64,000 nucleotides of DNA from Spirochaetia bacterium (GTDB lineage: Bacteria; Spirochaetota; Spirochaetia; UBA9216), in NCBI GenBank assembly GCA_965140585.1, contig OZ223272.1:448001-512000 (forward strand), read 5' to 3'. Shown here one piece after another: positions 7,770 through 39,014 of the stretch. Below the pieces are notes generated by a model, which was given only the letters and a program-made list of their open reading frames with translations, made no database searches and was not told where the DNA came from. Numbering within the stretch: position 1 is the first letter of the stretch; each line of letters begins with the position of its first letter. A program made the translations under genes and the position numbers.

Positions 7770-8195
7770 TTTTTCCTCCTCTGAAATCATTCAAAAACAG
7801 TTTTATATGATTAAATCGATATTTATTACTGTCAAATAGTATCATAGTAACAATATTTGACATAGTTTTTTATCTAATCACCTCTTTCAATAAATAGTAC
7901 ATTTATATCCCTTCTTCGCCCGTCGGCCGGAGGTCCGGGCGTCTTCTTCTTGTCGGGCTCATTGCACATAACGTCTGCGGTTATATGACGTTTGGCGCAG
8001 CCAAATGTGCCGCAGGCCGAGGCCGAATGGCCGATGCAAATAACCGCTGTTATATAAAGTACTTGGGCTCACTAGTTTCTTCCCCAAAAGACAAGGACGT
8101 ATTTTGGGATCCAATATTAATCTACTTCTTTTCTCTTCAACTCTTACTCTTCAATCTCTTTATTTCAATAATGTTCCTAACTTTATCATAGAATA

Positions 8196-8711
8196 TTAAA
8201 TATTTGTTTTTTTGTTAATATTGTAGATCATTAAAAATTCCTCTTCATTCTCACCTATTATTTGGAACCCTATGTTTTGATACATCTTTAAAGCGTAGTT
8301 ATCTTTTTGTACAGCTAAACTTGCTTTCTTAAAACCTTTATCTCTTAATAATTTCAACATTGAAATCATCAAAGAAGTACCAATTCCATATCCTCTAAAA
8401 TCTTTTAGAATCGATATTGCGAACTCTGGAGTTTTATCATCTATATTCCCAAAGCCTTTGATTTGTTCGGATAATATCCTAACCCAAACACAGCCTATTA
8501 TTTCTTTTTCATATTCTGCTACTAAGCAATAATCTGATTCTTTTCCAAACTCCGCAATATAAACCTGAAGTTCAGGCTTTTTAATTATATCTTTTGGCAG
8601 TCGATCCTTATTATTCTTTTGAAATATTGCCTCGTAGAGAAAATTGTCTAATACATAAATTTCCGATGTTTTAATGTTTCTAATCTTGTAGTTGATTTGA
8701 TTCTTTTTCAT
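8196..8711 (-). CDS. GNAT acetyltransferase (cassette 1)
   Basis: FRGYGIGT, SLAVQKDN, YQNIGF motifs. Confidence 0.88.
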   Translation of the reverse strand: MKKNQINYKIRNIKTSEIYVLDNFLYEAIFQKNNKDRLPKDIIKKPELQVYIAEFGKESDYCLVAEYEKEIIGCVWVRILSEQIKGFGNIDDKTPEFAISILKDFRGYGIGTSLMISMLKLLRDKGFKKASLAVQKDNYALKMYQNIGFQIIGENEEEFLMIYNINKKTNI

Positions 8712-8958
8712 AATTTCTCAATAATTTCTATCATAAAATTTTTCAATCCTTCTCTTACCCTTTTTCTCTTTTTCTTCACGAGCCAGGACGGCGAGTGCTG
8801 AATCCTCTTCGCCCAAGTATTTCATATAACGTCCCGGGGTTAAGCGAAGTTGCGAAGCAATTTGGGCGCAGGCCGAAGGGCCGGAGCCGCTTAACCCCTG
8901 TTATCTGAAGTATTGTGGCTTAAGCCGTAATTACAGGACGTAATTACGGCTTTCTTCT

Positions 8959-9183
8959 CTACGATAACTCTCGAGCTTCTCTAATAACATCAAGAATTTC
9001 TTTGGTTGTAACTTTACTTTTAATTCCTGGAACATCAAATGGCGATTTGCTTTCATTTTTAGTAAGCGGTACAATCTTAAATCTGCTTCCATCCTTCTTT
9101 GCTATTATGACATCTTCTTCTGCTGCCATATTCAATATTGAAGCAAAATTCTGCCTAGCTTCTGAATAATTAAAAACTCTCAT
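8959..9183 (-). CDS. Phd/YefM family antitoxin (cassette 2)
   Basis: YSEARQNFASILN N-terminus. Confidence 0.85.
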   Translation of the reverse strand: MRVFNYSEARQNFASILNMAAEEDVIIAKKDGSRFKIVPLTKNESKSPFDVPGIKSKVTTKEILDVIREARELS

Positions 9184-9576
9184 TCAGACCTCCAATAAGT
9201 GGACTCCTAAATCATTAGCCACTTCTTTCATTCTATTATCCAAACTCAACAAACTGCATTTGTATCGTTTTGCTATTTCCAAATAATACGCATCGTAAGC
9301 ATATATTCCATAATCTGCTGCTATTACTAATGAGTTTTGAATATTAACATCAATCAAACGCACTGGTATTTTCTGAAATATTGAATAACAATCAATTATT
9401 TGACTCTTATCTAATCTATTTCTTTTATACATTACAGATAGAGCGTTTCCCACTTCGAAAGGTAAAACAACCGGTGATATCAGATCATCTTCCTGAGTTA
9501 ATCCAATTATTTTGCTTTTTTCCGGCTCATCGAGAATTACTGCTAAATATATGTTTGCATCTACCAATATACTCAT
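9184..9576 (-). CDS. PIN-domain (VapC) toxin, upstream of its antitoxin (cassette 2)
   Basis: ILVDAN...YAYDAYYL...LLSLD PIN motifs; start moved to ATG at 9576. Confidence 0.88.
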   Translation of the reverse strand: MSILVDANIYLAVILDEPEKSKIIGLTQEDDLISPVVLPFEVGNALSVMYKRNRLDKSQIIDCYSIFQKIPVRLIDVNIQNSLVIAADYGIYAYDAYYLEIAKRYKCSLLSLDNRMKEVANDLGVHLLEV

Positions 9577-9611
9577 GTGTACATTGTACAACACTTTTTA
9601 AATTTTATCAA
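9577..9611 (-). promoter_or_regulatory. Sigma70 promoter with TGTACA operator; probably leaderless transcript
   Basis: TTGATA-17-TACAAT, ATG 6 nt after the -10; two TGTACA palindromes around the -10. Confidence 0.7.
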
Positions 9612-9778
9612 TCTTAATTCTTTCTAACGAGCCAAGGAAGGCGAGTTTCTTCAAACCACAATATTTCGGATAACGTTCTGAGAATAGGCGAAGTTGGCCA
9701 CAGGCCAATTTGGGTGAAGCGAAGCGGAACCGCCTATTCTCTGTTACAGGAAGTTGATTGAGCTACCTTAGTTCAATC

Positions 9779-11135
9779 GATAACGTAAAAAATCTTTCGC
9801 ACATTTAAAAAATAATGGAAAAGGTCCTCAAGAAGGTTTAATATTTTTTCACCACAAAAAATGAACCAAAGAGAGGACCTTTATGGCAACAAATGAGCCA
9901 GGTAAAATTATACAAATAGATGAGCATTTAGTCCAATCACAATTGAAAGAAGTTGTGAGAGACACTGTTGAAGAAACTCTGAATTCTTTGCTCGATGCAG
10001 AAGCTGACAGGCTTTGCGGAGCAGAAAAATACGAGCGAACTGATGCACGTAAAGATACCCGTGCTGGCTATTACAAACGAAACCTTGATACATCTGCCGG
10101 TCGCGTTGAACTCAAAATGCCTAAGCTAAGAAATCTGCCTTTTGAAACAGCAATTGTCGAACGGTATAAGCGCCGAGAGGCTTCGGTTGAAGAGTCTCTG
10201 ATTGAGATGTATCTGGCCGGAGTTTCTGTTCGTCGAGTTGAAGATATTACCGAAGCACTCTGGGGAACCAAGGTTTCATCAGGTACTGTAAGTAATTTAA
10301 ATAAACAGATTTATGAGTAAATAGAAGCTTGGCGGAACAGACCTATCAAGGAGTATTACCTTTATGTTTATCTCGATGGCATAGTATTGAAGCGCTCCTG
10401 GGCTGGAGAAGTTAGAAATGTATCAGTTTTGGTGGCTATAGGGGTCTCAGAGAGCGGTTATCGTGAAATAATTGGTGTTGCCGAGGGAGCAAAAGAGGAT
10501 AAAGCAGGCTGGAGTGACTTCCTGAAGTTCTTGAAATCCCGAAGGCTTAAAGATGTTAAATTGATTATCTCTGATAAGTGTATGGGCCTTGTAGAATCGA
10601 TCTGTGAATACTTCCCCGAATCCAGATGGCAACGCTGTGTAGTGCATTATTACCGCAATGTTTTTTCTGTAGTACCTCGTGGAAAAATGCGAGAAGTTGC
10701 TGCAATGCTTAAAGCAATTCATGCTCAAGAAGATAGAGATGAGGCATTGAAAAAGGCTTCATATGTAGCTAAGAAACTTGAAGATATGAAACTTCACAAA
10801 GCATCGAAAAAGGTATCTGAATGTATCCATGAAACCCTTGAATACATGTTCTTCCCAGAACAGCACTGGCAAAGAATTAAGACGAATAATCCACTGGAAC
10901 GGATCATGCGGGAAATCCGAAGGCGTACCCGAGTAGTTGGTAATTTCCCTGATGGAAATTCTGCTCTTATGCTGGTCTCTGCTCGGCTCCGACATATTGC
11001 CGGAACAAAATGGGGCACAAAAAAATACTTGAACACTGCTCTTTTGAAGGAGTATGATTACATAGAAAAGGAGGTACTTGCATAGCATCTTCTTGAGGAC
11101 CAAATCTGAAAGTGCGAAAGATTTTAAGCGCTACC
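9779..11135 (+). mobile_element. IS256-family insertion sequence
   Basis: Imperfect TIRs (GATAACGTAAAAAATCTTTCGCAC / GGTAGCGCTTAAAATCTTTCGCAC); 8-bp target duplication GTTCAATC at 9771-9778 and 11136-11143. Confidence 0.92.
9883..11085 (+). pseudogene. IS256 transposase with in-frame nonsense codon
   Basis: EMYLAGVSVRRV, YLDG, QRCVVH, TNNPLER motifs; TAA at 10318-10320 with the frame continuing IEAWRNRP. Confidence 0.9.
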
Positions 11136-11541
11136 GTTCAATCATCATACCACAACCAAATTTTTCTGTTGGTCTCTTGAAGAAACCAAATTTCTCATAA
11201 AATTCTTCTTTTCCTTTTGCTGCCATTAAAGTGATATAAGAATTTTCTGGAGCATTTTCTTCGAGATAAAGCATTATGCTATTCATTATTTTTGCACCAA
11301 TTTTCTTTCCTCGAAAGTCAGGCTTTACAATTATGTCAGAAATAAAATATATAAAGCCTTTATCACCTACAATTCGTCCCATTCCAATTAATTCAGAATC
11401 AGCATAAGCTGTCACACAATATTCTGTATTACTTAATGATATCTGTATTGAGTGATCCGGCGGTAAAGGCCATCCAACAGATTTTCTAAGTTCTTTAAAT
11501 GATGTCAAAGTTATTATTTCTTTTCTGATCTCAATTTTCAT
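11131..11541 (-). CDS. GNAT acetyltransferase (cassette 3; extreme C-terminus altered by the IS)
   Basis: IGMGRIVGD, DIIVKPDFRGKKIG, FYEKFGF motifs. Confidence 0.88.
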   Translation of the reverse strand: MKIEIRKEIITLTSFKELRKSVGWPLPPDHSIQISLSNTEYCVTAYADSELIGMGRIVGDKGFIYFISDIIVKPDFRGKKIGAKIMNSIMLYLEENAPENSYITLMAAKGKEEFYEKFGFFKRPTEKFGCGMMIER

Positions 11542-11763
11542 TAAAGTCCTCAATCAATTTCCTATAACGTCCCGGGTTAAGCGAAGCTGAAGTGCTACTA
11601 CAGGAGAGTTTTGCGAATGCGCAAAACCGACTGAACTTGCTCTGCTTCTTCGTAAGCTTCAGTTTGGGTGAGGCCGTATGGCCGAACCGCTTAACCCTTG
11701 TTATCTGCTGTGAACCAGCGTTCCAGACCGTATAACGGAGTTAGGTCTGAAAATTCTTCATTC

Positions 11764-12162
11764 TTATATACTCCAATCTTCGATTTTTAACCCTTTCACT
11801 CTTTCGAATTCTTTAACATTGTTTGTTACAAATATTAATTCTTTATTTAAAGCTTGTGCAGCTAATAACATATCTATTGGACCTATAATCCGACCTTGTT
11901 TTCTTAAATCTGTCTTTAACCTTCCATAATCTATAGCATCTGAATCATCGAAATTTAAAATATTAAAAATCGATAAGAATTTTAGCAATGCAATACGATT
12001 ATTCTCAATCTTTTGACTATTTTCAACTCCAAACTCTAATTCAGCAACTGTTAGGGATGATATGTAGATTCCATCTGAAATCTTTTCTTTCAATTTCTTT
12101 AAAACCGATTCTGGTCTTTTTTTAATTGCGAAAATACAAATATTTGTATCTAATAAATACAT
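11764..12162 (-). CDS. vapC: VapC toxin (PIN), cassette 4
   Basis: YLLDTNIC, GPIDMLLAAQAL, VTNNVKEFERV. Confidence 0.93.
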   Translation of the reverse strand: MYLLDTNICIFAIKKRPESVLKKLKEKISDGIYISSLTVAELEFGVENSQKIENNRIALLKFLSIFNILNFDDSDAIDYGRLKTDLRKQGRIIGPIDMLLAAQALNKELIFVTNNVKEFERVKGLKIEDWSI

Positions 12163-12392
12163 TAGAAACTTTCCCTTTCTTGATTCTTTCCCTGTTCTCT
12201 TCCTGTATCCATAAAATCATCCGAAAACTCATTAATCCCTTCAACGAATATTTCCCATAACTTCTCATGTGGAAATAATAAAACAGCATCACCGTGCTTT
12301 TGAATATAAACTTCATCTCCTCTGAACTGGTACTCTTTTGGTAACCTAACTGCTTGAGATCTGCCATTCATAAATATTTTTGCTGTTTGCAT
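12162..12392 (-). CDS. vapB: VapB/VagC AbrB-type antitoxin, cassette 4
   Basis: AKIFMNGRSQAVRLPKEYQF. Confidence 0.93.
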   Translation of the reverse strand: MQTAKIFMNGRSQAVRLPKEYQFRGDEVYIQKHGDAVLLFPHEKLWEIFVEGINEFSDDFMDTGREQGKNQERESF

Positions 12393-12410
12393 ATTATCAC
12401 CTCTATATTA

Positions 12411-12439
12411 AATATATACCTTGATATATACCTTGTCAA
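12411..12439 (-). promoter_or_regulatory. vapBC promoter/operator
   Basis: TTGACA-17-TATATT containing two AGGTATATAT repeats. Confidence 0.7.
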
Positions 12440-12651
12440 ACATTACTTTATCCAAAATCTATTATTTTCTTAATCGCCCGTCGGCCGGAGGTCCGGGCGT
12501 CTTCTCTTCGCTGGTTTATTGCAGATAACGTTCCAGGGTTATACGACGTTCGGCGCAGCCCGTAGGCCGAATGGCCGGAGCGTGTAACCCTTGTTATGCG
12601 CTTTGAGCCTGACATCCAGACCGTTCAACGGAGTTAGGTCTGGATTCTTCT

Positions 12652-13173
12652 TTAATATCGCTCTTCTCTATTTCTTCTATCTATATCCTTCTCAATCTCT
12701 TTAATCATATCATAGTATTCTGAATCAATTGAGAATTTTACACTAACTTCTTTTCCATCCTTCTTATATAATATAATAAAATAAGTATTAGAACCTATCA
12801 TATTAATATTCTTCTCTTCTAAATATTCCACATTTCTTTTTTCAATAATTTCAATATTTTTTTTAAAAATATTGATTATAAGAAATTTTTCATTACCCCA
12901 ATATACAATCTTTATTTTTCGATATGTAAATAAATAAATGCATAAATAAACAACAACCACCAAAATGAAAAATGGTAAAAAACTATTTTTTATAAATCCA
13001 AATGAATACATTAAAAAATATCCAATAATTATTATTGGAAGCAAATATTTAATAACAAAATGCGAATCATTTGAGACTTTCCTATAACCATCATTAATTA
13101 AATTAACGTTATCATCTTTGCTGATTTTATATTCCATTTTTAAAAAATCAATTATTCTTTTTATTATATTCAT
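12652..13173 (-). CDS. Hypothetical membrane protein (cassette 5)
   Basis: 173 aa, two TM segments, AT-rich. Confidence 0.65.
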   Translation of the reverse strand: MNIIKRIIDFLKMEYKISKDDNVNLINDGYRKVSNDSHFVIKYLLPIIIIGYFLMYSFGFIKNSFLPFFILVVVVYLCIYLFTYRKIKIVYWGNEKFLIINIFKKNIEIIEKRNVEYLEEKNINMIGSNTYFIILYKKDGKEVSVKFSIDSEYYDMIKEIEKDIDRRNREERY

Positions 13174-13504
13174 TATTAATTATCCCTTTCTAAAAAACTT
13201 TGTATTCTTATGTTCTTAAAGTATTAAAAATCAATTTAAACAATCATTTTTGTTAAACACTATAGTATTTTTCATTTTTCCTTCTTTCTCGCCCGTCGGC
13301 CGAAGGTCCGGGCATCTTACTCTTGTTAGGCTCATTGCGTATAACGTTCCGGGGTTATGTGACGTACGGCGCCAAGCCGTATGTGGCGCAGCCCGAGGAG
13401 CGTATAGCGACGAAGCACATAGCCCCTGTTATCTGCTGTATTTTCGCCTCTTCGACCAGGCCGTACGGCGGGGCCAGGCTGGGTTCTTAAAATCCTCTTT
13501 ACTT

Positions 13505-14401
13505 CTAATTATATCTTCTCGTTCCTATTCTTCTAAACAGAAAACCTCCAATACAAGTATCTTCATATTTCGTACCTGGATATACATCATCAATTCTAAT
13601 TATTACTTCCTGATCGCAGAATACTTTGGTATCGATAAATTGAGGATTAGCGGTATCTTCTATCTCATAGGCCCGCTCAATATCCTTATCTTTACTAATG
13701 ATAGTAAACTTTTTTAATCTTGAATTTTCTGAATACAGTCGTGGTGAATCAAATGATATGTATCCATTAATTATATAAAATCCATCAATTATGCCCTTAT
13801 CACCAGAGAAATGTGTTAAATTCATATAAATTTCTTCACCTAAACCATTTCCAGAAGCAGCTTCAGCCCATGGATGTTTTAGATCAATATAAATTAAATT
13901 TTGCGCTTCATAATCAACCTTCTCTTCGGTTAAATGCGAACTCGAGGTAATTCTTGTAGATAATGATGCGAAACGGTATTTCTTTAAAAATTCTTGTGTA
14001 GCCCCAATAAAGATGGCACTATTTGTCTTATTTAATTGTTCTGACATATAAACTAATAGTAATTCATCATTCTCAAGAAGCAATAGCTTTCTTTCCCCAT
14101 TCACTGTTAAGTAATTAAACCCATTAACCTTTTCTATCTCATAATCTTCGTATAAAACTTCGGAAGGTATTTCGTATGAAACAGCATTTTCATACTTTGA
14201 ATTAATTCCCACACCTGCTTCATTATCCAATCTAAATTGCTGATCACTTATTTCTATTCTTAAATCATCACCAAAAAATGGATCTTCATAATAAAAGGGA
14301 TTATCAATTTGTGCGTAAATCATTTCTAAAGTGAAAAACAATATTGATATACTGATTAACTTTTTCACATCTTCTCCAATATTTTCATTTTTAATCATCA
14401 A
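13505..14401 (-). CDS. Secreted protein with NADase-type glycan-binding / discoidin-like C-terminal domain (cassette 6)
   Basis: WAEAASGNGLGE, INGY...YSENSRLK, DDVYPGTKYEDTCI motifs. Confidence 0.7.
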   Translation of the reverse strand: MMIKNENIGEDVKKLISISILFFTLEMIYAQIDNPFYYEDPFFGDDLRIEISDQQFRLDNEAGVGINSKYENAVSYEIPSEVLYEDYEIEKVNGFNYLTVNGERKLLLLENDELLLVYMSEQLNKTNSAIFIGATQEFLKKYRFASLSTRITSSSHLTEEKVDYEAQNLIYIDLKHPWAEAASGNGLGEEIYMNLTHFSGDKGIIDGFYIINGYISFDSPRLYSENSRLKKFTIISKDKDIERAYEIEDTANPQFIDTKVFCDQEVIIRIDDVYPGTKYEDTCIGGFLFRRIGTRRYN

Positions 14402-14610
14402 AATATGATTACACTTTCTTAATAGCCCGTCGGCCGGAGGTCCGGGTGTCTTCCTCTTTGCGGGGGCATTTCAGCTAACGTTCCAGGGTTACACGACGTT
14501 GGCGCAGCCGAATGTGGCGCAGCCCAGAGGCCGAATGGCCGAAGCGTGTAACCCTTGTTATCTGCTTTGAACCCGTCATCCAGACCGTTCAACGGAGTTA
14601 GGTCTGGATT

Positions 14611-18350: not shown

Positions 18351-18487
18351 GTTCCGGGGTTATGTGACGTACGGCTTAAGCCGTATGTGGCGCAGCCCGA
18401 GGAGCGCATAGCGACGAAGCACATAGCCCCTGTTAGACGATGTCACGAACCTTCTTCAAAGCCAAGCAACACGGATGTTGTTTGGCT

Positions 18488-19101: not shown

Positions 19102-19230
19102 TCTTTGCTTGCCAGGGATGGTAAGCATCCTCTTTCTCTTAGGTTCGTGATTTCGTCTAACGTCCCGGGGTTAAGCGAAGTTGCGCAGCAATTTAGGCGC
19201 AGGCCGAAGGGCCGGAGCCGCTTAACCCCT

Positions 19231-19798: not shown

Positions 19799-20197
19799 GT
19801 TATACGCCGTCACAAAATAAAGAAAGTTGTACATCATCTTCACAACCTAAAATTTTAGTTCACATTTCAAACTTATTTAATATTCTATTCGACCATACTG
19901 TCTTTCACAATCTTTTTTATTTACTCCGCAAAATAACGAGCTTTGCGAGTGGGCCAGTTTTGCATAAACGTTTCTGCATGCCCCAGCCCCGTACAGATTT
20001 TGATTATTCCAAAGCCAAAACTCTTTCATAGAACGTCAGAAAAAAGTCATTGTTTGAAATTTTTCTTCATCAAAACAAAAATCAAAATCTGAAATCAGAT
20101 CTTAGTCGAACAGAATATTGCCAACTTATTATTTCATTATTTAAGCGCAGCAACTTTCTTCCACCCCATATCCTTGCCCAAAGTGATGGAGTATAAC
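19799..20197. repeat. ORF-less cassette family B, copy 1
   Basis: ~398 bp unit GTTATACGCCGTCAC...GTGATGGAGTATAAC with ~178 bp att. Confidence 0.9.
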
Positions 20198-20375
20198 GTC
20201 CCGGGGTTATGTGACGTACGGCGATAGCCGTATGTGGCGCAGCCCGAGGAGCGCATAGCGACGACGCACATAGCCCCTGTTATAAGCAGTAAGCCAGGCA
20301 TCCAGACCGTCCAACGGAGTTAGGTCTGGATTCTCTCATGTCTTTGTTTTATTAACCTTACTTTCTAAGGTTAAA

Positions 20376-21326: not shown

Positions 21327-21489
21327 TTAATCTCCTTTTTGAAATTCAGTCTTATCGCCCGTCGGCCGGAGGCCCGGGCGTCTTCCTCTTGCCTGGCTTA
21401 TTGCTTATAACGTCCCGGGGTTATACGACGTTCGGCAAAGCCGAATGTGGCGCAGCCCGAAGCCCGAATGGGCGGAGCGTATAGCCCCT

Positions 21490-28622: not shown

Positions 28623-28879
28623 TTCATTAACCCCTTCCTTTATTTATAATCTTTTCTCTTCGCCCGTCGGCCGGAGGTCCGGGCGTCTTCTTCTTGTCGG
28701 GCTCATTGCACATAACGTTCCGGGGTTATACGACGTTCGGCGCAGCCGAATGTGGCGCAGCCCGGAGCCCGAATGGGCGGAGCGTATAGCCCCTGTTATG
28801 TTCAGTAAAAAGGCAGGCCTCCAACTTTAAAGGAGAACTTGTACACGGATGTACAAGTTCTCTCTTTTCATCTTCAAAT

Positions 28880-29566: not shown

Positions 29567-29803
29567 TTTCTCATTATACCTTTTTTGGGCCAGGACGGCC
29601 CAAAAACACCCTCCGAAGCCGCCTTTTTATTGAACATAACGTCCGCGGTTATGTGATGTTTTGTGGTCGGCCCTACAGGCCGATTGGCAACTCTTTTGCA
29701 TTCAGCGCCTTTACCCTCTATCTTTCTCCATTTCGCAAAAGTGGTGACAAAACAAAATATGCCGCAGGCCAAGGAGCGTCTAGCGACGCCGCACATAGCC
29801 GCT

Positions 29804-32271: not shown

Positions 32272-32494
32272 TTTATATATCCTTCATTCTTAAATGTTTG
32301 AGCCATGGACGGCTCAAACTCTTATTCTTAATTACTCTTGGCGCTTATTGACTATAACGTTCCAGGGTTATACGACGTTCGGCAAAGCCGAATGTGGCGC
32401 AGCCCGGAGGCCGTATGGCCGGAGCGAATAACCCTTGTTATAGGCAGTAAGCGCCTCTTTGATTACATGTAGTGAGGCACGGATGCCGAACGGA

Positions 32495-32702
32495 AATCTT
32501 TCTTCTTAATCTTTCTTCTTAATCTTTCTTCTTAATCTTTCTTCTTAATCTTTCTTCTTAATCTTTCTTCTTAATCTTTCTTCTTAATCTTTCTTCTTAA
32601 TCTTTCTTCTTAATCTTTCTTCTTAATCTTTCTTCTTAATCTTTCTTCTTAATCTTTCTTCTTAATCTTTCTTCTTAATCTTTCTTCTTAATCTTTCTTC
32701 TT
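32495..32702. repeat. 13-mer tandem repeat (AATCTTTCTTCTT) x16
   Basis: 208 bp counted directly. Confidence 0.96.
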
Positions 32703-33191
32703 AACAACATCTTCATAAATCATTGAAACAGCATCTGGAATGGATAAGTTTGAATTAATTCTGCTCTCAGAAATAATTCCAATCAAATCTTCTTCTCTCC
32801 ACCACTTCCTCATATCCTCTTCTCCAAAATCAGAACTATTTGATTTCGATTTATGTCGTCGTATTGTCTCTTCAAAAGATAAATCATAATAATAAGCAAA
32901 TATTTCAGAGTCAAATTCTTCTATTGCTTTTTTAAATAATCTAAGATAATAATCTGAGTATAAAATACCTTCTAAAATTACAAATTCTGAATTTCTCTTT
33001 CCATATTTAATTAATTCCTCTAAAAGTGGGATTGCCTTATTTTCAATTCTATCATGAACCCATAACATCTCTCTTCTTATATAATCCTGAGAAATCATCA
33101 TAGTATTTCGACCCAATTTTCTTTGTAATGATTTTGCTAAGGAAGTTTTTCCACTTCCTGAATTACCTCTAATAATTATTAGCTTTGACAT
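32688..33191 (-). CDS. P-loop (AAA_33-like) kinase, copy 1 (cassette 29)
   Basis: IIIRGNSGSGKT Walker A, VILEG. Confidence 0.85.
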   Translation of the reverse strand: MSKLIIIRGNSGSGKTSLAKSLQRKLGRNTMMISQDYIRREMLWVHDRIENKAIPLLEELIKYGKRNSEFVILEGILYSDYYLRLFKKAIEEFDSEIFAYYYDLSFEETIRRHKSKSNSSDFGEEDMRKWWREEDLIGIISESRINSNLSIPDAVSMIYEDVVKKKD

Positions 33192-33379
33192 CTACTTTTT
33201 ATTTCCCTCTTAGAATCCGCCACGGAAGGCGGATTTCTTTCTTCTCGAAAAATCTTGGCGCTTATTGCCTATAACGTTCCAGGGTTATACGACGTTCGGC
33301 AAAGCCGAATGTGGCGCAGCCCGGAGGTCGTATGGCCGGAGCGAATAACCCTTGTTATAGGCAGTAAGCGCCTCTTTGA

Positions 33380-33913
33380 TTACATGTAGTGAGGCACGGA
33401 TGCCGAACGGAAATCTTTCTTCTTAACAACGTCTTCATAAATCATTGAAACAGCATCTGGAATGGATAAGTCTGAATTAATTCTGCTCTCAGAAATAATT
33501 CCAATCAAATCTTCTTCTCTCCACCACTTCCTCATATCCTCTTCTCCAAAATCAGAACTATTTGATTTCGATTTATGTCGTCGTATTGTCTCTTCAAAAG
33601 ATAAATCATAATAATAAGCAAATATTTCAGAGTCAAATTCTTCTATTGCTTTTTTAAATAATCTAAGATAATAATCTGAGTATAAAATACCTTCTAAAAT
33701 TACAAATTCTGAATTTCTCTTTCCATATTTAATTAATTCCTCTAAAAGTGGGATTGCCTTATTTTCAATTCTATCATGAACCCATAACATCTCTCTTCTT
33801 ATATAATCCTGAGAAATCATCATAGTATTTCGACCCAATTTTCTTTGTAATGATTTTGCTAAGGAAGTTTTTCCACTTCCTGAATTACCTCTAATAATTA
33901 TTAGCTTTGACAT
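33380..33913 (-). CDS. P-loop kinase, copy 2, with 10-aa C-terminal extension (cassette 30)
   Basis: Single 13-mer unit, so no TAA is formed; ends FRSASVPHYM. Confidence 0.85.
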   Translation of the reverse strand: MSKLIIIRGNSGSGKTSLAKSLQRKLGRNTMMISQDYIRREMLWVHDRIENKAIPLLEELIKYGKRNSEFVILEGILYSDYYLRLFKKAIEEFDSEIFAYYYDLSFEETIRRHKSKSNSSDFGEEDMRKWWREEDLIGIISESRINSDLSIPDAVSMIYEDVVKKKDFRSASVPHYM

Positions 33914-34133
33914 CTACTTTTTATTTCCCTCTTAGAATCCGCCACGGAAGGCGGATTTCTTTCTTCTCGAAAAATCTTGGCGCTTATTGCCTATAACGTT
34001 CCAGGGTTATACGACGTTCGGCAAAGCCGAATGTGGCGCAGCCCGGAGGCCGTATGGCCGGAGCGAATAACCCTTGTTATAGGCAGTAAGCGCCTCTTTG
34101 ATTACATGTAGTGAGGCACGGATGCCGAACGGA

Positions 34134-34276
34134 AATCTTTCTTCTTAATCTTTCTTCTTAATCTTTCTTCTTAATCTTTCTTCTTAATCTTTCTTCTTAA
34201 TCTTTCTTCTTAATCTTTCTTCTTAATCTTTCTTCTTAATCTTTCTTCTTAATCTTTCTTCTTAATCTTTCTTCTT
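34134..34276. repeat. 13-mer tandem repeat (AATCTTTCTTCTT) x11
   Basis: 143 bp counted directly. Confidence 0.96.
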
Positions 34277-34765
34277 AACAACATCTTCATAAATCATTGA
34301 AACAGCATCTGGAATGGATAAGTTTGAATTAATTCTGCTCTCAGAAATAATTCCAATCAAATCTTCTTCTCTCCACCACTTCCTCATATCCTCTTCTCCA
34401 AAATCAGAACTATTTGATTTCGATTTATGTCGTCGTATTGTCTCTTCAAAAGATAAATCATAATAATAAGCAAATATTTCAGAGTCAAATTCTTCTATTG
34501 CTTTTTTAAATAATCTAAGATAATAATCTGAGTATAAAATACCTTCTAAAATTACAAATTCTGAATTTCTCTTTCCATATTTAATTAATTCCTCTAAAAG
34601 TGGGATTGCCTTATTTTCAATTCTATCATGAACCCATAACATCTCTCTTCTTATATAATCCTGAGAAATCATCATAGTATTTCGACCCAATTTTCTTTGT
34701 AATGATTTTGCTAAGGAAGTTTTTCCACTTCCTGAATTACCTCTAATAATTATTAGCTTTGACAT
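34262..34765 (-). CDS. P-loop kinase, copy 3 (cassette 31)
   Basis: Protein identical to copy 1. Confidence 0.85.
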   Translation of the reverse strand: MSKLIIIRGNSGSGKTSLAKSLQRKLGRNTMMISQDYIRREMLWVHDRIENKAIPLLEELIKYGKRNSEFVILEGILYSDYYLRLFKKAIEEFDSEIFAYYYDLSFEETIRRHKSKSNSSDFGEEDMRKWWREEDLIGIISESRINSNLSIPDAVSMIYEDVVKKKD

Positions 34766-34927
34766 CTACTTTTTATTTCCCTCTTAGAATCCGCCACGGA
34801 AGGCGGATTTCTTTCTTCTCGAAAAATCTTGGCGCTTATTGCCTATAACGTCCCGGGGTTATACGACGTTCGGCAAAGCCGAATGTGGCGCAGCCCGAAG
34901 CCCGAATGGGCGGAGCGTATAGCCCCT

Positions 34928-35328
34928 GTTATGCGACGTCGCCTTTATTAGAGAAAGATTCCGACCAATCAAACGATCTAAATAATCTCCTCTTACCATT
35001 TCTACCCAATATTCTATTCGCCCTTTGCGACTTTCACAATCATTTTTATTTTACCTGCAAGTCAACGAGCAAAGCGAGTGTGGCAGACTTGCCAAACGGA
35101 AAAACCTGTCATGCCCACGAAGCAGATTTTGATAATTATAAGCCAATACTTTTTCTTTAACGTCAGAACAAACATCGTCCAGCGCAACGACCTTCTTTTA
35201 ACAACCAAATCAAAATCCAAAATCTTCCTCATTCCAGGGCGAATTGAATATTGTAAACTATTTGGTAATCACTTGTGGTTCGGAACTTTCTCCACCCCAA
35301 GATCATGCTCCTGCGATGTCCGCATAAC
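34928..35328. repeat. ORF-less cassette family A, copy 8
   Basis: Similar to A1 with small indels. Confidence 0.9.
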
Positions 35329-35406
35329 GTCCCGGGGTTATACGACGTTCGGCAAAGCCGAATGTGGCGCAGCCCGAAGCCCGAATGGGCGGAGCGTATA
35401 GCCCCT

Positions 35407-35809
35407 GTTATGCGACGTCGCCTTTATTAGAGAAAGATTCCGATCAATCAAACGATCTAAATAATCTCCTCTTACCATTTCTACCCAATATTCTATTCGC
35501 CCTTTGCGACTTTCACAATCATTTTTTTTCACCTGCAAGTTAACGAGCAAAGCGAGTGTGGCAGACTTGCCAAACGGAAAAACCTGTCATGCCCACGAAG
35601 CAGATTTTGATAATTATAAGCCAATACTTTTTCTTTAACGTCAGAACAAACATCGTCCAACGCAACAACCTTCTTCTAACAACAACCAAATCAAAATCCA
35701 AAATCTTCCTCATTCCAGGGCGAATTAAATATTGCAAACTATTTGGTAATCACTTATGGTTCGGAACTTTCTCCACCCCAAGATCATGCTCCGGCGATGT
35801 CCGCATAAC
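35407..35809. repeat. ORF-less cassette family A, copy 9
   Basis: Similar to A1 with small indels. Confidence 0.9.
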
Positions 35810-35974: not shown

Positions 35975-36372
35975 GTTATACGCCGTCACAGAATAAAGAA
36001 AGTTGTACATCATCTTCATAATCTAAACATTTATTTCACATTTCAAACTTCTTTAATATTCTATTCGACCATACTGACTTTCACAATCTTTTTTATTTAC
36101 TCCGCAAAATAACGAGCTTTGCGAGTGGGCCAGTTTTGCATAAACGTTTCTGCATGCCCCAGCCCCGTACAGATTTTGATTATTCCAAAGCCAAAACTCT
36201 TTCATAGAACGTCAGAAAAAAGTCATTGTTTGAAATTTTTCTTCATCAAAATAGAAATCAAAATCTGAAATCATATCTTAGTCGAAGAGAATATTGCCAA
36301 CTTATTATTTCATTATTAAGCGCAGCAACTTTCTTCCACCCAATATCCTTGCCCAAAGTGATGGAGTATAAC
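35975..36372. repeat. ORF-less cassette family B, copy 4
   Basis: Similar to B1. Confidence 0.9.
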
Positions 36373-36622
36373 GTCCGTGGTTAAGCGAAGCTGATGCGCA
36401 ACTAAAGGAGTGTTTTGCGAATGCGCAAAACCGACTGACCCTGCTCTACTTCTCCGTAAGCTTCAGTTTGGGTGAAAGCGCCATGGCGCTTTCACCGCTT
36501 AACCATTGTTATGTGCTTTGAGCCCGACATCCAGACCGTTCAACGGAGTTAGGTCTGGATTCTTCTTTTCTTTTCCCAGGATTCTGAAAATAATCAATAC
36601 TGCTGTAAACACGTATTATGTT

Positions 36623-37201
36623 TTATAATCCTATTACTCTATTCCAATCTGCAATATACATATAAATTCTTTGAAATTCTGATGGTAGTAGCATTCTATT
36701 ATGTGCTATAAAATTTCTTGTTTTTTCAAGTTCATCCATTCTTTGTTTTAACCAATGTTGCGATGGTATCAAGGTTTCAAAAAAATGCCAAAACTCAATC
36801 ATAATTTGAGACAGCATTCCAAAATCTATAAAACCAAGAAGATCAGATTTTTCACCTTCTAACCAACTATCTTTTAAAGCGGATTCCTGACGTCTTTGAG
36901 CATGATCTTTTATTCTATTTGGAATCGAATCCCACCAATTTACCCCGATATTTTCCTGTAATGTTTCTCGAATTAGATCTCTTATTTCATTTTCAAAACA
37001 AAATATTAAACTATATAAACGAGACATTTCTAGTGCTTTATTTCTCCTATTAATCGAGAAAGGAGAGATAACCTCATTTGTTAAATCTATCTCAGTTCTC
37101 GAATCAGAAGCCCCTATTTGTATTCCTGCTTTTTGAAATTTATTTGCTTCAGATTCAAACATTAACCCTCGAAAAAGATAATCTCTTAAATCTTTAGTCA
37201 A
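36623..37201 (-). CDS. Swt1-like HEPN domain protein (cassette 35)
   Basis: FENEIRDLI..L....G.NWW, RNFIAH (RxxxxH). Confidence 0.8.
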   Translation of the reverse strand: MTKDLRDYLFRGLMFESEANKFQKAGIQIGASDSRTEIDLTNEVISPFSINRRNKALEMSRLYSLIFCFENEIRDLIRETLQENIGVNWWDSIPNRIKDHAQRRQESALKDSWLEGEKSDLLGFIDFGMLSQIMIEFWHFFETLIPSQHWLKQRMDELEKTRNFIAHNRMLLPSEFQRIYMYIADWNRVIGL

Positions 37202-37814
37202 TTAAATGCTCCTTAACACTTTTAAATATTGCGTTATAAACTTCTATATCTTTTGTTGCTGGTAAATGTATCTGAATATTATAATGTAATGAAGTTTGAC
37301 TGATCTTCCTTTCAATTGACTCAATTTTTTCTGGCTCGATTTCTTCTTTCTCATTATCATTATCTTCTACTATTTTTGTCTCTTCAACTACATCAGAATT
37401 TATATCTGCAAATTCTAATAGTGAATAAAATGTTTTCATCATCAATTCTGCATTGCGTTCTGAAGTATTATGAGTACTTTTAAACTTACCTTTTATTAAT
37501 TCTTTATCTTTATCTTCAGGATATCTGCTAATAGTAAAAATATCCGAATATGCCTCTTTAATTGCTTTGCCCAAGATTTTTCGTGATAAAGCTTCATTTC
37601 TAAATTCTTTATATTCATCAGTTGGTGATCCATCCTCTGTTAAAAACCCTAAAGCTTTTAATAATGGAATAAATGCTCTATGATTAGTCGAAGTAAATCC
37701 TATATCTTTCAAATGCTGATTAGTAAATTTCCCAGGAGCTTGTCCTTGTTTTATTTTATTAAAAAAATCTCCTAATTGACCATAAACTTGCAGCGGAATA
37801 TTTGCCAAACTCAT
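37194..37814 (-). CDS. DUF5343 domain protein (cassette 35)
   Basis: APGKFT..HLKDIGF, LKALGFLTEDGSPT, YNIQIHLPAT. Confidence 0.8.
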   Translation of the reverse strand: MSLANIPLQVYGQLGDFFNKIKQGQAPGKFTNQHLKDIGFTSTNHRAFIPLLKALGFLTEDGSPTDEYKEFRNEALSRKILGKAIKEAYSDIFTISRYPEDKDKELIKGKFKSTHNTSERNAELMMKTFYSLLEFADINSDVVEETKIVEDNDNEKEEIEPEKIESIERKISQTSLHYNIQIHLPATKDIEVYNAIFKSVKEHLID

Positions 37815-38132
37815 ATTCTCTCCCTTTATTTAAATTATTTCATATATATAACATTATAACGCTAAAATAATAATTTGGATCCTTAAAAATCACAACTTAA
37901 ACATTCTCTCTTCGCCCGTCGGCCGGAGGTCCGGGCGTCTTCCTCTTGTCGGGCTCATTGCACATAACGTCCCGCGGTTATGTGATGTTTTGTGCTCGGC
38001 CCTACAGGCCGATTGGCAACTCTTTTGCATTCAGCGCCTTTACCCTCTATCTTTCTCCATTTCGCAAAAGTGGTGACAAAACAAAATATGCCGCAGGCCA
38101 AGGAGCGTCTAGCGACGCCGCACATAGCCGCT

Positions 38133-38531
38133 GTTATACGCCGTCACAAAATAAAGAAAGTTGTACATCATCTTCACAATCTAAACATTTCTTTCACATT
38201 TCAAACTTCTTTAATATTCTATTCGACCATACTGACTTTCACAATCTTTTTTATTTACTTCGCAAAATAACGAGCTTTGCGAGTGGGCCAGTTTTGCATA
38301 AACGTTTCTGCATGCCCCAGCCCCGTACAGATTTTGATTATTCCAAAGCCAAAACTCTTTCATAGAACGTCAGAAAAAAGTCGTTGTTTGAAATTTTTCT
38401 TCATCAAAACAAAAATCAAAATCTGAAATCAGATCTTAGTCGAACAGAATATTGCAAACTTATTATTTCATTATTTAAGCGCAGCAACTTTCTTCCACCC
38501 CATATCCTTGCCAAAAGTGATGGAGTATAAC
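38133..38531. repeat. ORF-less cassette family B, copy 5
   Basis: Most similar to B3. Confidence 0.9.
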
Positions 38532-38609
38532 GTCCCGGGGTTATACGACGTTCGGCAAAGCCGAATGTGGCGCAGCCCGAAGCCCGAATGGGCGGAGCGT
38601 ATAGCCCCT

Positions 38610-39014
38610 GTTATGCGACGTCGCCTTTATTAGAGAAAGATTCCGATCAATCAAACGATCTAAATAATCTCCTCTTACCATTTCTACCCAATATTCTATT
38701 CGCCCTTTGCGACTTTCACAATCATTTTTATTTCACCTGCAAGTCAACGAGCAAAGTGAGTGTGGCAGACTTGCCAAACTGAAAAAACCTGTCATGCCCA
38801 CGAAGCAGATTTTGATAATTATAAGCCAATACTTTTTCTTTAACGTCAGAACAAACATCGTCCAACGCAACGACCTTCTTATAACAACAACCAAATCAAA
38901 ATCCAAAATCTTCCTCATTCCAGGGCGAATTGAATATTGCAAACTATTTGGTAATCACTTATGGTTCGGAACTTTCTCCACCCCAAGATCATGCTCCGGC
39001 GATGTCCGCATAAC
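38610..39014. repeat. ORF-less cassette family A, copy 10 (first cassette of the array)
   Basis: Shares diagnostic variants with A1. Confidence 0.9.

What the first reader, a model, noticed from the sequence alone, without database searches (positions are those of the whole stretch)
8049..39014. Each cassette has its own terminal inverted repeat, pairing on the + (bottom) strand
Seen: the two ends of the same cassette are complementary for ~15-22 nt, well beyond the 7-bp R box, and the sequence covaries between cassettes. Examples: GTTATAAGCAGTAAGCCAGGCA (20279) / TGCCTGGCTTATTGCTTATAAC (21411); GTTAGACGATGTCACGAACCT (18432) / AGGTTCGTGATTTCGTCTAAC (19161); GTTATGTTCAGTAAAAAGGC (28795) / GCCTTTTTATTGAACATAAC (29640); GTTATCTGAAGTATTGTGG (8900) / CCACAATATTTCGGATAAC (9674). 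Mismatches are mostly G-T or T-T on the + strand, which would be A-C or A-A on the - strand. Inference: the excised ssDNA circle folds as a dumbbell whose att stem extends into the cassette. This implies selection on a single-stranded circular stage and may record how cassettes are built.
Basis: partly seen in the sequence, partly recalled or inferred. Interest (0 to 1): 0.85.

Follow-up and report, generated by a model that had tools for sequence, protein, structure and literature searches.

The report
Cassette ends form an extended attC stem
In this marine spirochaete's gene-cassette array the two ends of each cassette are complementary for about 20 bases, so the recombination hairpin gains a long outer stem only once the cassette is cut out as a circle, and the neighbouring recombinase lacks the hallmark insertion of integron integrases.

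Summary
The window holds 37 attC sites and 37 cassettes (7966-39014). The cassette ORFs lie on the - strand. A tyrosine-recombinase gene (39080-40153, -) sits beside the attI-like junction.

- **Matched ends.** In 18 of 20 distinct end families, a cassette's own far end is the best or tied-best partner of its near end. Stems run 15-22 nt from the G of GTT in 22 of 23 distinct pairs outside the bulged X family. Unmatched pairs score at background.
- **Stability.** Joining each cassette into a circle in silico stabilises the attC hairpin by about 9 kcal/mol. The + strand is always the more stable one.
- **Strand asymmetry.** The G.T/T.T excess comes from positions 10-11. Position 11 is never Watson-Crick. 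Elsewhere G.T and A.C are about equal.
- **Relatives.** The position-11 mark recurs below orthologous recombinase genes in relatives and metagenomes.
- **Prior knowledge.** R-box pairing of 9-11 nt is already published. A canonical integron in the same genome shows 9-15 nt, median 10.5.
- **Recombinase.** It lacks the IntI I2 insertion and carries a HARP-like N-terminal domain.

Verdict: an extended, split attC stem in an integron-like platform, a new variant of a known kind. No function has been tested.

The parts
39080..40153 (-). Tyrosine recombinase P0001 (357 aa). It has a HARP-like N-terminal domain, a SAM-like core-binding domain and a catalytic domain without the IntI I2 insertion. It points the same way as the cassettes.
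   Evidence: XerA_Arch 229 bits, over its cut-off of 220; TIGR02249 192.8 bits, below its cut-off of 265, in two stretches. Pfam domains; 21 residues where VchIntIA (2a3v) has 62; gaps of 31 and 8 residues against the genome's canonical IntI. HARP-like domain.
39008..39014 (-). attI-like junction. This is the last R-type box (GCATAAC on +), after which the array sequence ends, 66 nt below the recombinase stop codon.
   Evidence: In orthologous loci the first cassette likewise starts about 40-150 nt below the recombinase gene.
7966..39014 (-). Array of 37 attC sites and 37 cassettes. The cassette ORFs are on the - strand, so - is the top strand and + the bottom strand.
   Evidence: The ORFs have diverse cassette-like functions.
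20191..20285 (+). Example attC, read as the bottom strand. It has a 6-bp R stem that includes a G.T pair, a 4-nt bulge (TCCC) on the 5' arm, an 11-bp L stem with no extrahelical bases, and a variable loop.
20279..20300 (+). Near-end arm (A arm) of cassette 20279-21411: the R'' box plus a 15-nt extension.
   Evidence: 22-nt stem.
21390..21411 (+). Far-end arm (B arm) of the same cassette. It is complementary to 20279-20300, with G opposite T at position 11.
8900..8921 (+). A arm of cassette 8900-9674.
   Evidence: 22-nt stem. The cassette is 98% identical in G001 and 97% in G007.
9653..9674 (+). B arm of cassette 8900-9674.
18432..18452 (+). A arm of cassette 18432-19161.
   Evidence: 21-nt stem.
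19141..19161 (+). B arm of cassette 18432-19161.
28795..28814 (+). A arm of cassette 28795-29640.
   Evidence: 20-nt stem.
29621..29640 (+). B arm of cassette 28795-29640.
21357..21379 (-). Conserved 23-nt GC-rich hairpin module just inside the 5' arm. It is present in 11 of 20 end families with 0.98 mean pairwise identity. The 5-8-nt variable stem segment beside it has 0.44.
20301..20330 (-). Conserved 30-nt hairpin module just inside the 3' arm. The strict pattern is present in 6 of 20 end families.
38610..39014 (-). First cassette, a copy of the ORF-less 'X' cassette (about 405 bp, 10 copies in the array). Its arms pair for about 16 nt with a 1-nt bulge.

Best explanation
The 'terminal inverted repeats' are the outer part of an unusually long attC hairpin.

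The strand exchange point lies inside the stem, in the R box (TAA|C on the + strand). Integration therefore splits the stem. About 15 nt stay at the 5' end of the cassette. The complementary 15 nt stay at its 3' end, next to the rest of the attC.

In the array, a folded attC has only a 5-6-bp R stem, because its two flanks belong to different cassettes. After excision and circularisation the full 19-22-bp stem re-forms on the bottom (+) strand.

The stem has three zones:
- positions 1-7 are the R box;
- positions 8-13 are sequence-conserved, with an obligatory imperfection at position 11 (G.T or T.T on the bottom strand, A.C or A.A on the top strand) and often T.T at position 10;
- positions 14-21 are free in sequence but kept complementary.

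Inferred, not shown:
- The long stem stabilises the excised cassette's hairpin and puts it in register as the substrate for re-integration at attI.
- Positions 8-13 with the position-11 mark form part of the recombinase's binding arm and help mark the strand. This would replace the extrahelical bases that canonical IntI reads with its I2 helix, which this recombinase lacks.
- The HARP-like N-terminal domain, a fold that in SMARCAL1 recognises DNA structure (this role is recalled, not checked here), may bind the stem or its base.
For: **Shown**
- Matched ends pair far better than unmatched ends: 18 of 20 families best or tied best, and 3 of 380 unmatched pairs reach the matched median.
- Mean MFE with DNA parameters over 34 constructs is -38.2 (circular, +), -32.4 (circular, -), -29.0 (array context, +) and -25.6 (array context, -) kcal/mol. 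The circular form is more stable in 31 of 34 and equal in 3.
- The crossover maps to the left R box. Cassette Y always carries the 178-nt attC on its left (5 of 5), with varying attCs on its right. Homology breakpoints of cassettes shared with G001 fall in ..TAAC|G...
- Positions 13-19 show all four Watson-Crick pair types, with 31-33 of 34 paired. Position 11 is Watson-Crick in 0 of 34 (24 G.T, 10 T.T).
- The variable stem segment has 0.44 mean pairwise identity, flanked by 0.89 (positions 8-13) and 0.98 (hairpin module).
- The same long matched ends occur below orthologous recombinase genes in G001 (96% identity) and in G007, G006 and G004 (53-57%).
- In loci with 34-41% identical full-length orthologues, ends match for about 14-15 nt. 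A strict scan required 13 of 14 identical bases and left position 11 free. It gave 11 pairs in 26.9 kb downstream and 0 in 71.9 kb upstream. All 11 read A in the 5' arm against G in the reverse-complemented 3' arm at position 11.
- Cassettes move as units. Cassette 8900-9674 is 98% identical in G001 and 97% in G007, while the arrays otherwise differ. Two cassettes adjacent in G001 lie nine cassettes apart here.
- The recombinase lacks I2.
- HARP: Pfam matches 5 of 10 orthologues (best E 2.3e-6). The N-terminal model (pLDDT 82) has the SMARCAL1 HARP domain 4o66 as its top Foldseek hit (E 0.044, probability 0.99).

**From the literature**
- The I2 helix reads the extrahelical bases of attC (passages of PMC7790495).
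Against: - No experiment or read evidence shows excision, a circle or a single-stranded stage. The laid public runs were contigs, and their joints fall in repeated attCs.
- Outside positions 10-11 there is no G.T over A.C bias: 4 versus 3 and 10 versus 6. Strand choice therefore rests on one site plus the attC body.
- An obligatory mismatch is equally 'conserved' on either strand.
- Two of 20 families do not have their own end as best partner.
- In relatives, 14 of 32 intervals between detected attCs (L017, L018, L019, L022) failed the match filter. Seven are 2.7 kb or longer and probably hold missed attCs. Six are 732-1781 bp, one is a 402-bp X copy, and the last is 299 bp.
- The pair-type table was made on pairs pre-selected for at least 9 of 13 matches. 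Its percentages paired are therefore inflated.
- The HARP assignment is weak for this protein itself (22.5 bits, cut-off 25). The Foldseek E-value is above 0.001.
- A canonical IntI is encoded elsewhere in the genome and could act in trans.
- Stems 700-1100 nt apart in the array could also pair across the ORF in long single-stranded DNA. I did not model this.
Confidence: 0.6

Rival explanations
1. The stems are a mutational or historical by-product with no function. All cassettes descend from a palindromic 'frame'. The two arms stay complementary through templated correction of quasi-palindromes or mismatch repair in a folded hairpin, or simply because both arms are inherited together.
For: - Many cassettes share near-identical frame modules next to the arms: 11 of 20 carry a 23-nt hairpin at 0.98 identity.
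- Several different ORFs share the same arms (30986-32358 versus 32437-34849; 27611-28716 versus 36508-37968).
- Template-switch correction of imperfect palindromes is a known mutational process (recalled, not checked here).
Against: - There are 20 distinct end families, and all four Watson-Crick pair types occur at each of positions 13-19.
- A never-corrected imperfection at position 11 sits beside well-kept pairs, including in loci whose recombinase is only 34-41% identical. That is the opposite of what blind correction would give.
- In the array the arms lie 400-1800 nt apart, so correction could act only in the circular form. That again implies the circular stage matters.
Confidence: 0.12
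2. The array belongs functionally to the genome's canonical integron. It would be a detached cluster of attC sites (a CALIN) served in trans by the canonical IntI on contig 6, and the neighbouring Xer-like gene would be incidental. The long stems would then be a lineage quirk of these attCs.
For: - A canonical IntI scores 374.7 bits (cut-off 265) at G000:C6:916649-917575, with its own array.
- A contig-6-type attC is nested in the loop of attC 30668-30992.
- About half of CALIN lie in genomes that encode IntI (passages of PMC4889954).
Against: - The recombinase gene and the array are syntenic and co-oriented in 12 of 16 orthologous loci examined, down to 34% identity.
- The array ends at an attI-like junction 66 nt below the gene.
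- The attC type of the window occurs only here in the genome, and none lies within 20 kb of the canonical intI.
- These attCs lack extrahelical bases in the L stem.
- The canonical array's matched ends pair for only 9-15 nt, median 10.5.
Confidence: 0.12
3. The complementary ends act in RNA. The 5' and 3' ends of each cassette transcript (- strand) would pair to protect the message or to mark processing sites in a long polycistronic transcript.
For: - The arms flank each ORF and sit beside conserved hairpins that could be RNA elements.
- Cassettes share the orientation of the recombinase gene, so read-through transcription is plausible. This is an inference.
Against: - On the - strand, position 11 is A.C or A.A, and the attC and R-stem wobbles become mismatches.
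- The - strand is less stable in 34 of 34 circular constructs.
- The stem is continuous with the R box, which holds the DNA crossover point.
- No Rfam family matches the window.
Confidence: 0.06
4. The ends are double-stranded terminal inverted repeats bound by a transposase-like protein. Each cassette would then be a small TIR element rather than an integron cassette.
For: Each unit is bounded by inverted repeats of 15-22 nt, the layout of a miniature transposon.
Against: - The repeats differ between units at positions 14-21, so no single protein could read them by sequence.
- No target-site duplications were seen.
- The units are separated by structured attC-like hairpins with RYYYAAC/GTTRRRY boxes.
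- The only conserved neighbouring enzyme is a tyrosine recombinase.
Confidence: 0.03

Closest known systems
Canonical integron attC sites, whose R'/R'' pairing extends to 9-11 nt (Bouvier et al. 2009, PMC2727003, passage read; it cites Rowe-Magnus 2003 and Sundstrom 1991, reference list seen)
   Same: - The site is a hairpin with R and L boxes, RYYYAAC/GTTRRRY.
- The crossover lies in the R' box, so the first bases of a cassette complete its own attC after excision.
- Pairing beyond the 7-nt box is already described.
- The canonical array of this same genome shows mostly 9-12 nt, up to 15.
   Different: - Here the pairing runs 19-22 nt (15 in the Y family).
- It contains a fixed non-Watson-Crick site at position 11 and a free-sequence, covarying outer segment.
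- The L stem has no extrahelical bases. The unpaired spacer is a one-sided 4-nt bulge.
Chromosomal integrons of Treponema with an 'inverted' integron integrase (Cury et al. 2016, PMC4889954, passages read)
   Same: Both occur in spirochaetes, have the integrase gene co-oriented with the cassettes, and carry a long sedentary array.
   Different: IntegronFinder defines IntI by the specific C-terminal insertion. P0001 lacks that insertion and falls below the TIGR02249 cut-off. I did not compare P0001 with a Treponema IntI sequence.
[quoted passage not shown] 2016)
   Same: A tool that requires the IntI insertion would most likely file this array as a CALIN. The genome also encodes an IntI elsewhere.
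   Different: The array has a conserved, adjacent, co-oriented recombinase gene and an attI-like end. It does not look orphaned.
Simple Xer-type tyrosine recombinases and the 'integron-like' subgroup of Smyshlyaev et al. 2021 (PMC8138268, passage read). [quoted passage not shown]
   Same: - P0001's best solved relatives are the Pyrococcus XerC-like protein 4a8e, Thermoplasma XerA 5hxy and then VchIntIA.
- It shares the C-terminal SPLD motif with the canonical IntI P0002. That this motif typifies IntI proteins in general is recalled.
   Different: No cassette array has been tied to insertion-less members in the passages and listings I saw. P0001 also adds a HARP-like N-terminal domain.
SMARCAL1 HARP substrate-recognition domain (PDB 4o66)
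   Same: It is the top fold match of the N-terminal 76 residues. Pfam HARP matches 5 of 10 orthologues.
   Different: The domain is fused to a tyrosine recombinase, not a helicase. Similarity is weak (8% identity, Foldseek E 0.044). Its DNA-structure binding role is recalled, not tested.

Membership tests
Integron (sensu IntegronFinder, Mazel) | An integron integrase carrying the IntI-specific additional domain (I2 helix), adjacent to the array | tested here: not met
   - TIGR02249 scores 192.8 bits, below its cut-off of 265, split into two stretches.
- P0001 has 21 residues where VchIntIA has 62.
- Gaps of 31 and 8 residues appear against the genome's own canonical IntI.
- All 10 aligned orthologues lack the insertion.
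Integron (sensu IntegronFinder, Mazel) | An array of cassettes, each ending in an attC hairpin with RYYYAAC...GTTRRRY boxes and paired L boxes | tested here: met
   37 sites were found. The consensus fold has 17 pairs, 6 with compensatory changes.
Integron (sensu IntegronFinder, Mazel) | Extrahelical bases on the R''-L'' arm and a two-sided unpaired central spacer in the folded bottom strand | tested here: not met
   The L stem is a continuous 11 bp. The only unpaired bases are a 4-nt bulge on the R'-L' arm. These are predicted folds only.
Integron (sensu IntegronFinder, Mazel) | An attI site next to the integrase gene, where the array starts | tested here: inconclusive
   The array ends at GCATAAC (39008-39014), 66 nt below the recombinase stop codon. 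Orthologous loci have the same layout. No attI function was shown. The gene is co-oriented with the array, not divergent.
Integron (sensu IntegronFinder, Mazel) | Cassettes are mobile as discrete units, with the crossover in the R' box | tested here: met
   This rests on comparative evidence only. Shared cassettes sit in different contexts in G001 and G007, and their homology ends in ..TAAC|G... Cassette Y keeps its attC in 5 of 5 copies.
Integron (sensu IntegronFinder, Mazel) | Recombination uses the folded bottom strand of attC | not testable with these tools
   Indirect evidence only: the + strand is more stable in 34 of 34 circular and 33 of 34 array constructs.
CALIN | Two or more attC sites with no integron integrase nearby | tested here: met
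   This is met formally, because P0001 fails the IntI definition. The conserved adjacent recombinase gene argues that the label would mislead.
Xer/dif chromosome-dimer resolution | A single dif-type site, with the recombinase not linked to cassette arrays | tested here: not met
   The genome has a separate XerC/XerD-like pair on contig 4. P0001 orthologues sit above arrays in 12 of 16 loci examined.

The most novel reading that the evidence does not exclude
This may be a separate, widespread class of integron-like cassette platform. Its recombinase never acquired, or has lost, the I2 helix that is held to be the innovation enabling single-stranded attC recombination. Instead it carries a HARP-like structure-specific DNA-binding domain.

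Under this reading the recombinase recognises cassettes through an extended R-side stem that exists only in the excised circle. The stem is marked by an obligatory bottom-strand G.T (or T.T) at position 11. Its free-sequence outer segment acts as a per-cassette 'self' code.

The family reaches beyond spirochaetes. Orthologues of 34-41% identity with arrays occur in metagenomes. Named homologues of about 40% identity occur in Firmicutes, a phylum reported to be almost devoid of integrons.
Probability: 0.4. Interest if true: 0.85.

Novelty: new variant of a known kind. Interest (0 to 1): 0.7.

Why it matters
**Recognition without I2.** Integron biology holds that attC sites are recognised by structure, through extrahelical bases read by the I2 helix of IntI. 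Here a working-looking cassette array has neither the extrahelical bases nor I2. It has a different structural signature, a long split stem with a fixed wobble, and a different accessory domain. If the recombinase is active, it is a natural second solution to hairpin-site recombination.

**Uncounted platforms.** Tools that require the IntI insertion would probably count such arrays as orphan attC clusters. Integron-like platforms may therefore be under-counted in some phyla.

**A testable stage.** The split stem is the only part of the site that differs between the integrated and excised states. That makes the role of the excised circle directly testable by compensatory mutagenesis.

**Cassette origins.** The conserved frame modules around a hypervariable but complementary segment also bear on the open question of how cassettes are made.

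Tried and rejected
- **Rfam.** The search at gathering thresholds found no family anywhere in the window. Rfam gave no match to these attCs, so I built my own model.
- **Public runs.** One run holds 0.93 of the sampled words and is probably the source. Seven hold 0.06-0.21. I laid four runs on 7800-14500. All are Logan contigs, not raw reads.
  - Many joints fall at or near attC sites. One example is 11704 to 12525, which skips cassette 11700-12529.
  - Their sides are only 19-91 letters and they lie in repeated attC sequence.
  - I do not count them as evidence for or against excision. They cannot show circles.
  - Two marine metagenome runs from other studies carry pieces about 93-99% like cassettes 8900-9674 and 11700-12529. 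This is a weak hint of spread only.
- **Strand bias.** A general G.T over A.C bias along the stems was tested and rejected: 4 versus 3 and 10 versus 6.
- **Canonical IntI as owner of the array.** No window-type attC lies within 20 kb on either side of it. The window's attC motif occurs only in this array.
- **Distant relatives on short contigs.** L020, L028, L031, L032 and L037 gave no or one attC or matched pair, but only 0.4-4.8 kb lies downstream of the gene there.
- **Literature.** Five full-text searches returned no paper in their listings that describes attC stems of about 20 nt, a position-11 wobble, or cassette arrays tied to insertion-less or HARP-bearing recombinases. I read passages only:
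  - PMC8352920, PMC2727003 and PMC4889954;
  - PMC8138268, PMC9024848 and PMC7790495;
  - PMC3053210 held none of my search terms.
  Supplements were not opened and may hold attC alignments that bear on this. Subscription papers (Stokes 1997, Coleman 2004, MacDonald 2006) were not seen and are recalled.
- **Not done.** I made no phylogeny of P0001 against IntI and Xer and did no promoter mapping. I did not model pairing of the arms across the ORF in the array, and I made no comparison with a Treponema IntI.

Full report
**What is in the window.** Reading 18300-21600 showed GC-rich imperfect palindromes of the form ..ATAAC-N-GTTAT.. separating AT-rich segments whose ORFs lie on the - strand.

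I built a covariance model from 10 of these sites. Scanned without filters, it found 28 sites on the + strand at 46-104 bits. The same sites scored at most 18 bits on the - strand. Six longer sites came from motif pairs and three from inspection. The total is 37 attC-like sites between 7966 and 38616.

The array ends at GCATAAC (39008-39014), 66 nt below the stop codon of a tyrosine-recombinase gene (39080-40153, - strand). Cassette ORFs encode GNAT acetyltransferases, a serine beta-lactamase-family protein and an MBL-fold protein. They also encode an ankyrin/SH3 protein, an HNH endonuclease, three paralogous P-loop kinases and a HEPN-DUF5343 pair. That is a typical mixed cassette cargo. Rfam has no match in the window.

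**Orientation and crossover.** Two short ORF-less cassettes recur: X (about 405 bp, 10 copies) and Y (about 399 bp, 5 copies). Y always has the same 178-nt attC on its left in + coordinates (5 of 5), and different attCs on its right. X has the 92-nt type on its left in 7 of 10 copies. The attC therefore belongs to the cassette on its right. That puts it 3' of the ORF on the - strand.

Two cassettes are shared with the same-genus genome G001. Comparing their contexts places the ends of homology in ..TAAC|G.. of the left box. This agrees with the canonical AA|C cut on the bottom strand.

**The observation.** For every cassette I compared the 30 nt starting at GTT (A arm) with the reverse complement of the 30 nt ending at AAC (B arm).
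- The four quoted examples are exact.
- The 37 cassettes give 27 distinct end pairs in 20 families.
- Anchored extension scores beyond the 7-nt box were 1-13 (median 9.5) for matched pairs. They averaged 1.9 (sd 1.9) for 380 unmatched pairs, of which 3 reached 9.5.
- A cassette's own arm was strictly best in 15 families, tied best in 3 and not best in 2.
- Stems measured from the G of GTT are 15-22 nt in 22 of 23 distinct non-X pairs. X pairs for about 16 nt with a one-base bulge.
- The exception, 13428-14479, has a B arm that fits the A arm of another cassette (26766). It may be a chimera.

**Fold energies.** I joined each cassette's B arm to its own attC and A arm inside a script and folded both strands with DNA parameters. 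I did the same for the attC in its array context. Mean MFE over 34 constructs, in kcal/mol:

| Construct | + strand | - strand |
|---|---|---|
| Circular | -38.2 | -32.4 |
| Array context | -29.0 | -25.6 |

The circular form is more stable in 31 of 34 constructs. It is equal in the 3 whose neighbour is the same cassette family. The + strand is more stable in 34 of 34 circular and 33 of 34 array constructs.

**Strand asymmetry is one site.** Mismatches inside the stems are G.T 20, T.T 16, A.G 5, A.C 3 and C.T 2. Position 11 alone gives 16 G.T and 6 T.T, and position 10 gives 8 T.T. Elsewhere G.T and A.C stand at 4 and 3.

I then pooled the window with arrays from four relatives and kept 34 distinct pairs that had at least 9 of 13 ungapped matches at positions 8-20. 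This left out 30 of 69 intervals. Those were the X and Y copies, the outlier, and 13 intervals in relatives, 7 of them 2.7 kb or longer. In the pooled set:
- position 11 is never Watson-Crick (24 G.T, 10 T.T);
- position 10 is A-T in 20 and T.T in 11;
- positions 13-19 each show all four Watson-Crick pair types, with 31-33 of 34 paired;
- outside positions 10-11, G.T and A.C stand at 10 and 6.

The covariation is real. The G.T bias is a fixed structural mark.

**Anatomy of the stem.** On the top strand the 5' end of a cassette reads GTTATNN-GCAATG-(5-8 variable nt)-purine block-23-nt GC hairpin. The 3' end reads hairpin-(variable)-CAAAGC-NN-ATAAC. Among the 11 families with the GC hairpin, mean pairwise identity by segment is:

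| Segment | Mean pairwise identity |
|---|---|
| Positions 1-7 | 0.81 |
| Positions 8-13 | 0.89 |
| Variable stem | 0.44 |
| Purine block | 0.68 |
| GC hairpin | 0.98 |

A hypervariable but complementary segment thus lies between two conserved blocks.

**The recombinase is not a canonical IntI.**
- P0001 passes the NCBIfam XerA_Arch model (229 bits, cut-off 220). It fails TIGR02249 (192.8 bits, cut-off 265, two stretches).
- Against VchIntIA (2a3v) it aligns in two blocks, with 21 residues where the integrase has 62.
- Against the genome's own canonical IntI (P0002, 374.7 bits, on contig 6) it is 30% identical. Gaps of 31 and 8 residues fall at the additional domain.
- All ten aligned orthologues lack the insertion. 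So do all metagenome relatives I could parse. There the spacing between two catalytic motifs is 59-74 residues, against about 107 in P0002 as counted from the printed sequence.
- P0001 keeps the C-terminal SPLD motif that the canonical IntI P0002 also has.
- Its first 75 residues match Pfam HARP in 5 of 10 orthologues (best E 2.3e-6). P0001 itself scores 22.5 bits against a cut-off of 25.
- An AlphaFold model of this domain (pLDDT 82.1) has the SMARCAL1 HARP substrate-recognition domain as top Foldseek match (E 0.044, probability 0.99, TM 0.54-0.61).
- Sources name homologues 'tyrosine-type recombinase/integrase', 'XerD' or 'site-specific tyrosine recombinase/integron integrase'. 7177 proteins reach E <= 1e-30 among the 8000 candidates scored. 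They include named Firmicutes at about 40% identity.

**The recombinase and the array go together.** Full-length orthologues occur in 10 of 10 genomes of the same family searched and in other families of the class.

Window-type attCs lie directly downstream, co-oriented, in G001 (96% identity), in G007, G006 and G004 (53-57%), and one in G012. Wherever consecutive attCs were 600-1700 bp apart, most intervals showed the same long matched ends with G.T at position 11. Seven short intervals in L017 and L019 did not.

More distant loci carry cassettes whose ends match for 14-19 nt. These are G039 at 40% identity and the metagenome loci L026, L027, L029, L036, L039 and L055 at 34-41%.

A strict scan asked for GTT... 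and ...AAC ends 250-3000 nt apart, identical at 13 of 14 positions, with position 11 left free. Results:
- 11 pairs in 26.9 kb downstream of recombinase genes whose match includes the N-terminal domain, and 0 in 71.9 kb upstream;
- 3 pairs in 182 kb downstream and 2 in 124 kb upstream of genes matched without that domain;
- all 16 pairs read A against G at position 11 when read in one of the two directions, and none is a perfect match.

Altogether 12 of 16 orthologous loci examined show array features downstream. The other four have only 0.4-2.6 kb of flank.

**Comparison with a canonical integron in the same genome.** The contig-6 IntI is divergently oriented from an array of at least 25 attCs of a different type. 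There, matched ends of the 14 intervals under 2.5 kb extend 2-8 score units beyond the box (mean 3.9). That gives 9-15 nt in all (median 10.5), often with a bulged A at position 10 or 11. Unmatched pairs average 1.0.

[quoted passage not shown] 2009, passage read). The length, the fixed wobble and the covarying outer segment are not in the passages or listings I saw.

**Mobility.** Arrays of G000 and G001 share few cassettes although their recombinases are 96% identical. Cassette 8900-9674 is 98% identical in G001 and 97% in G007, whose recombinase is only 53% identical. Cassette 18432-19161 is 90% and 87% identical. The two are adjacent in G001 and nine cassettes apart here.

**How it most likely works.**

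Shown:
- the site is a hairpin;
- the crossover lies inside its stem;
- the outer stem is split between the cassette ends and is complementary only within a cassette;
- the stem carries a conserved imperfection;
- the cassettes move as units;
- a conserved I2-less recombinase gene sits at the head of the array.

Inferred from the canonical integron model (bottom-strand folded attC; replicative resolution, Loot 2012, abstract start seen in the listing):
- the excised cassette presents the full stem, which stabilises and registers the R box for integration at attI;
- a tyrosine recombinase monomer covers roughly 11-13 bp outward from its cut site (recalled), so the conserved positions 8-13 with the position-11 mark plausibly belong to its binding arm;
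- that arm may substitute for the extrahelical bases that I2 reads;
- the HARP-like domain may read the stem or its base.

None of this has been tested.

**Rivals.** Four alternatives are scored in their own sections: a functionless by-product of ancestry or templated correction, service in trans by the canonical IntI, an RNA-level role, and transposon-type TIRs. The fixed, never-corrected position 11 across distant relatives weighs against the first. The synteny and the distinct attC architecture weigh against the second.

**Limits.**
- All folds are predictions.
- The pooled pair table was made on pre-selected pairs.
- attC calling in relatives is incomplete.
- Public reads were contigs only.
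- Supplements of papers were not seen.

Noticed in passing
G000 contig 6, 916649-962400 (loci L024, L025); outside the window: The same genome carries a second, canonical integron. Its IntI has the I2 insertion (419 aa, TIGR02249 374.7 bits) and is divergent from an array of at least 25 attCs of a different type, about 130 nt long.
   Followed up: partly
window 30668-30992: This attC is 325 nt long because its loop holds a nested copy of the contig-6-type attC in the same orientation, with about 40 and 85 nt of extra flank. This may be a trace of cross-talk between the two platforms.
   Followed up: partly
window 17946-18350, 19231-19634, 21490-22377, 23851-24255, 26281-26685, 30272-30674, 34928-35809, 38610-39014 (X); 19799-20197, 23376-23772, 29804-30202, 35975-36372, 38133-38531 (Y): 15 of 37 cassettes are copies of two related ORF-less cassettes, X (10 copies) and Y (5 copies). 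X is also the first cassette next to attI. Only ORFs of at most 69 aa lie on the - strand, and there is no Rfam match. Their function is unknown. G001 holds X-like copies at 84-92% identity.
   Followed up: partly
window 21357-21379 and equivalents in 11 of 20 end families; 20301-20330 and equivalents in 6 of 20: Nearly invariant hairpin modules lie just inside the cassette arms. One is a 23-nt GC hairpin preceded by a purine block at the 5' end. The other is a 30-nt hairpin at the 3' end. Other cassettes carry different short hairpins with CGTCC- or ATCCG-type loops at the same places. Their role is unknown; it might be in transcript ends, insulation or strand synthesis.
   Followed up: partly
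window 13428-14479: This cassette's two ends do not match each other. Its far end fits the near end of cassette 26766-27475. On the + strand its own arms would pair only through four T.G wobbles. It may be a chimera or a fusion of two cassettes after loss of an attC.
   Followed up: no
window 16377-17864 (-), 25215-26090 (-), 8196-8711 (-), 26849-27376 (-): These cassette ORFs belong to the serine beta-lactamase family (PF00144), the metallo-beta-lactamase fold and GNAT acetyltransferases. The family names say nothing about substrates.
   Followed up: no
window about 14610-14800: A purine-rich tandem repeat of 8-nt units lies at the 3' end of the ORF region of cassette 14557-15432.
   Followed up: no
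window 36508-37968: A two-gene cassette with overlapping ORFs, DUF5343 (37194-37814) and a Swt1-like HEPN protein (36623-37201). It may be a toxin-antitoxin or defence pair.
   Followed up: no
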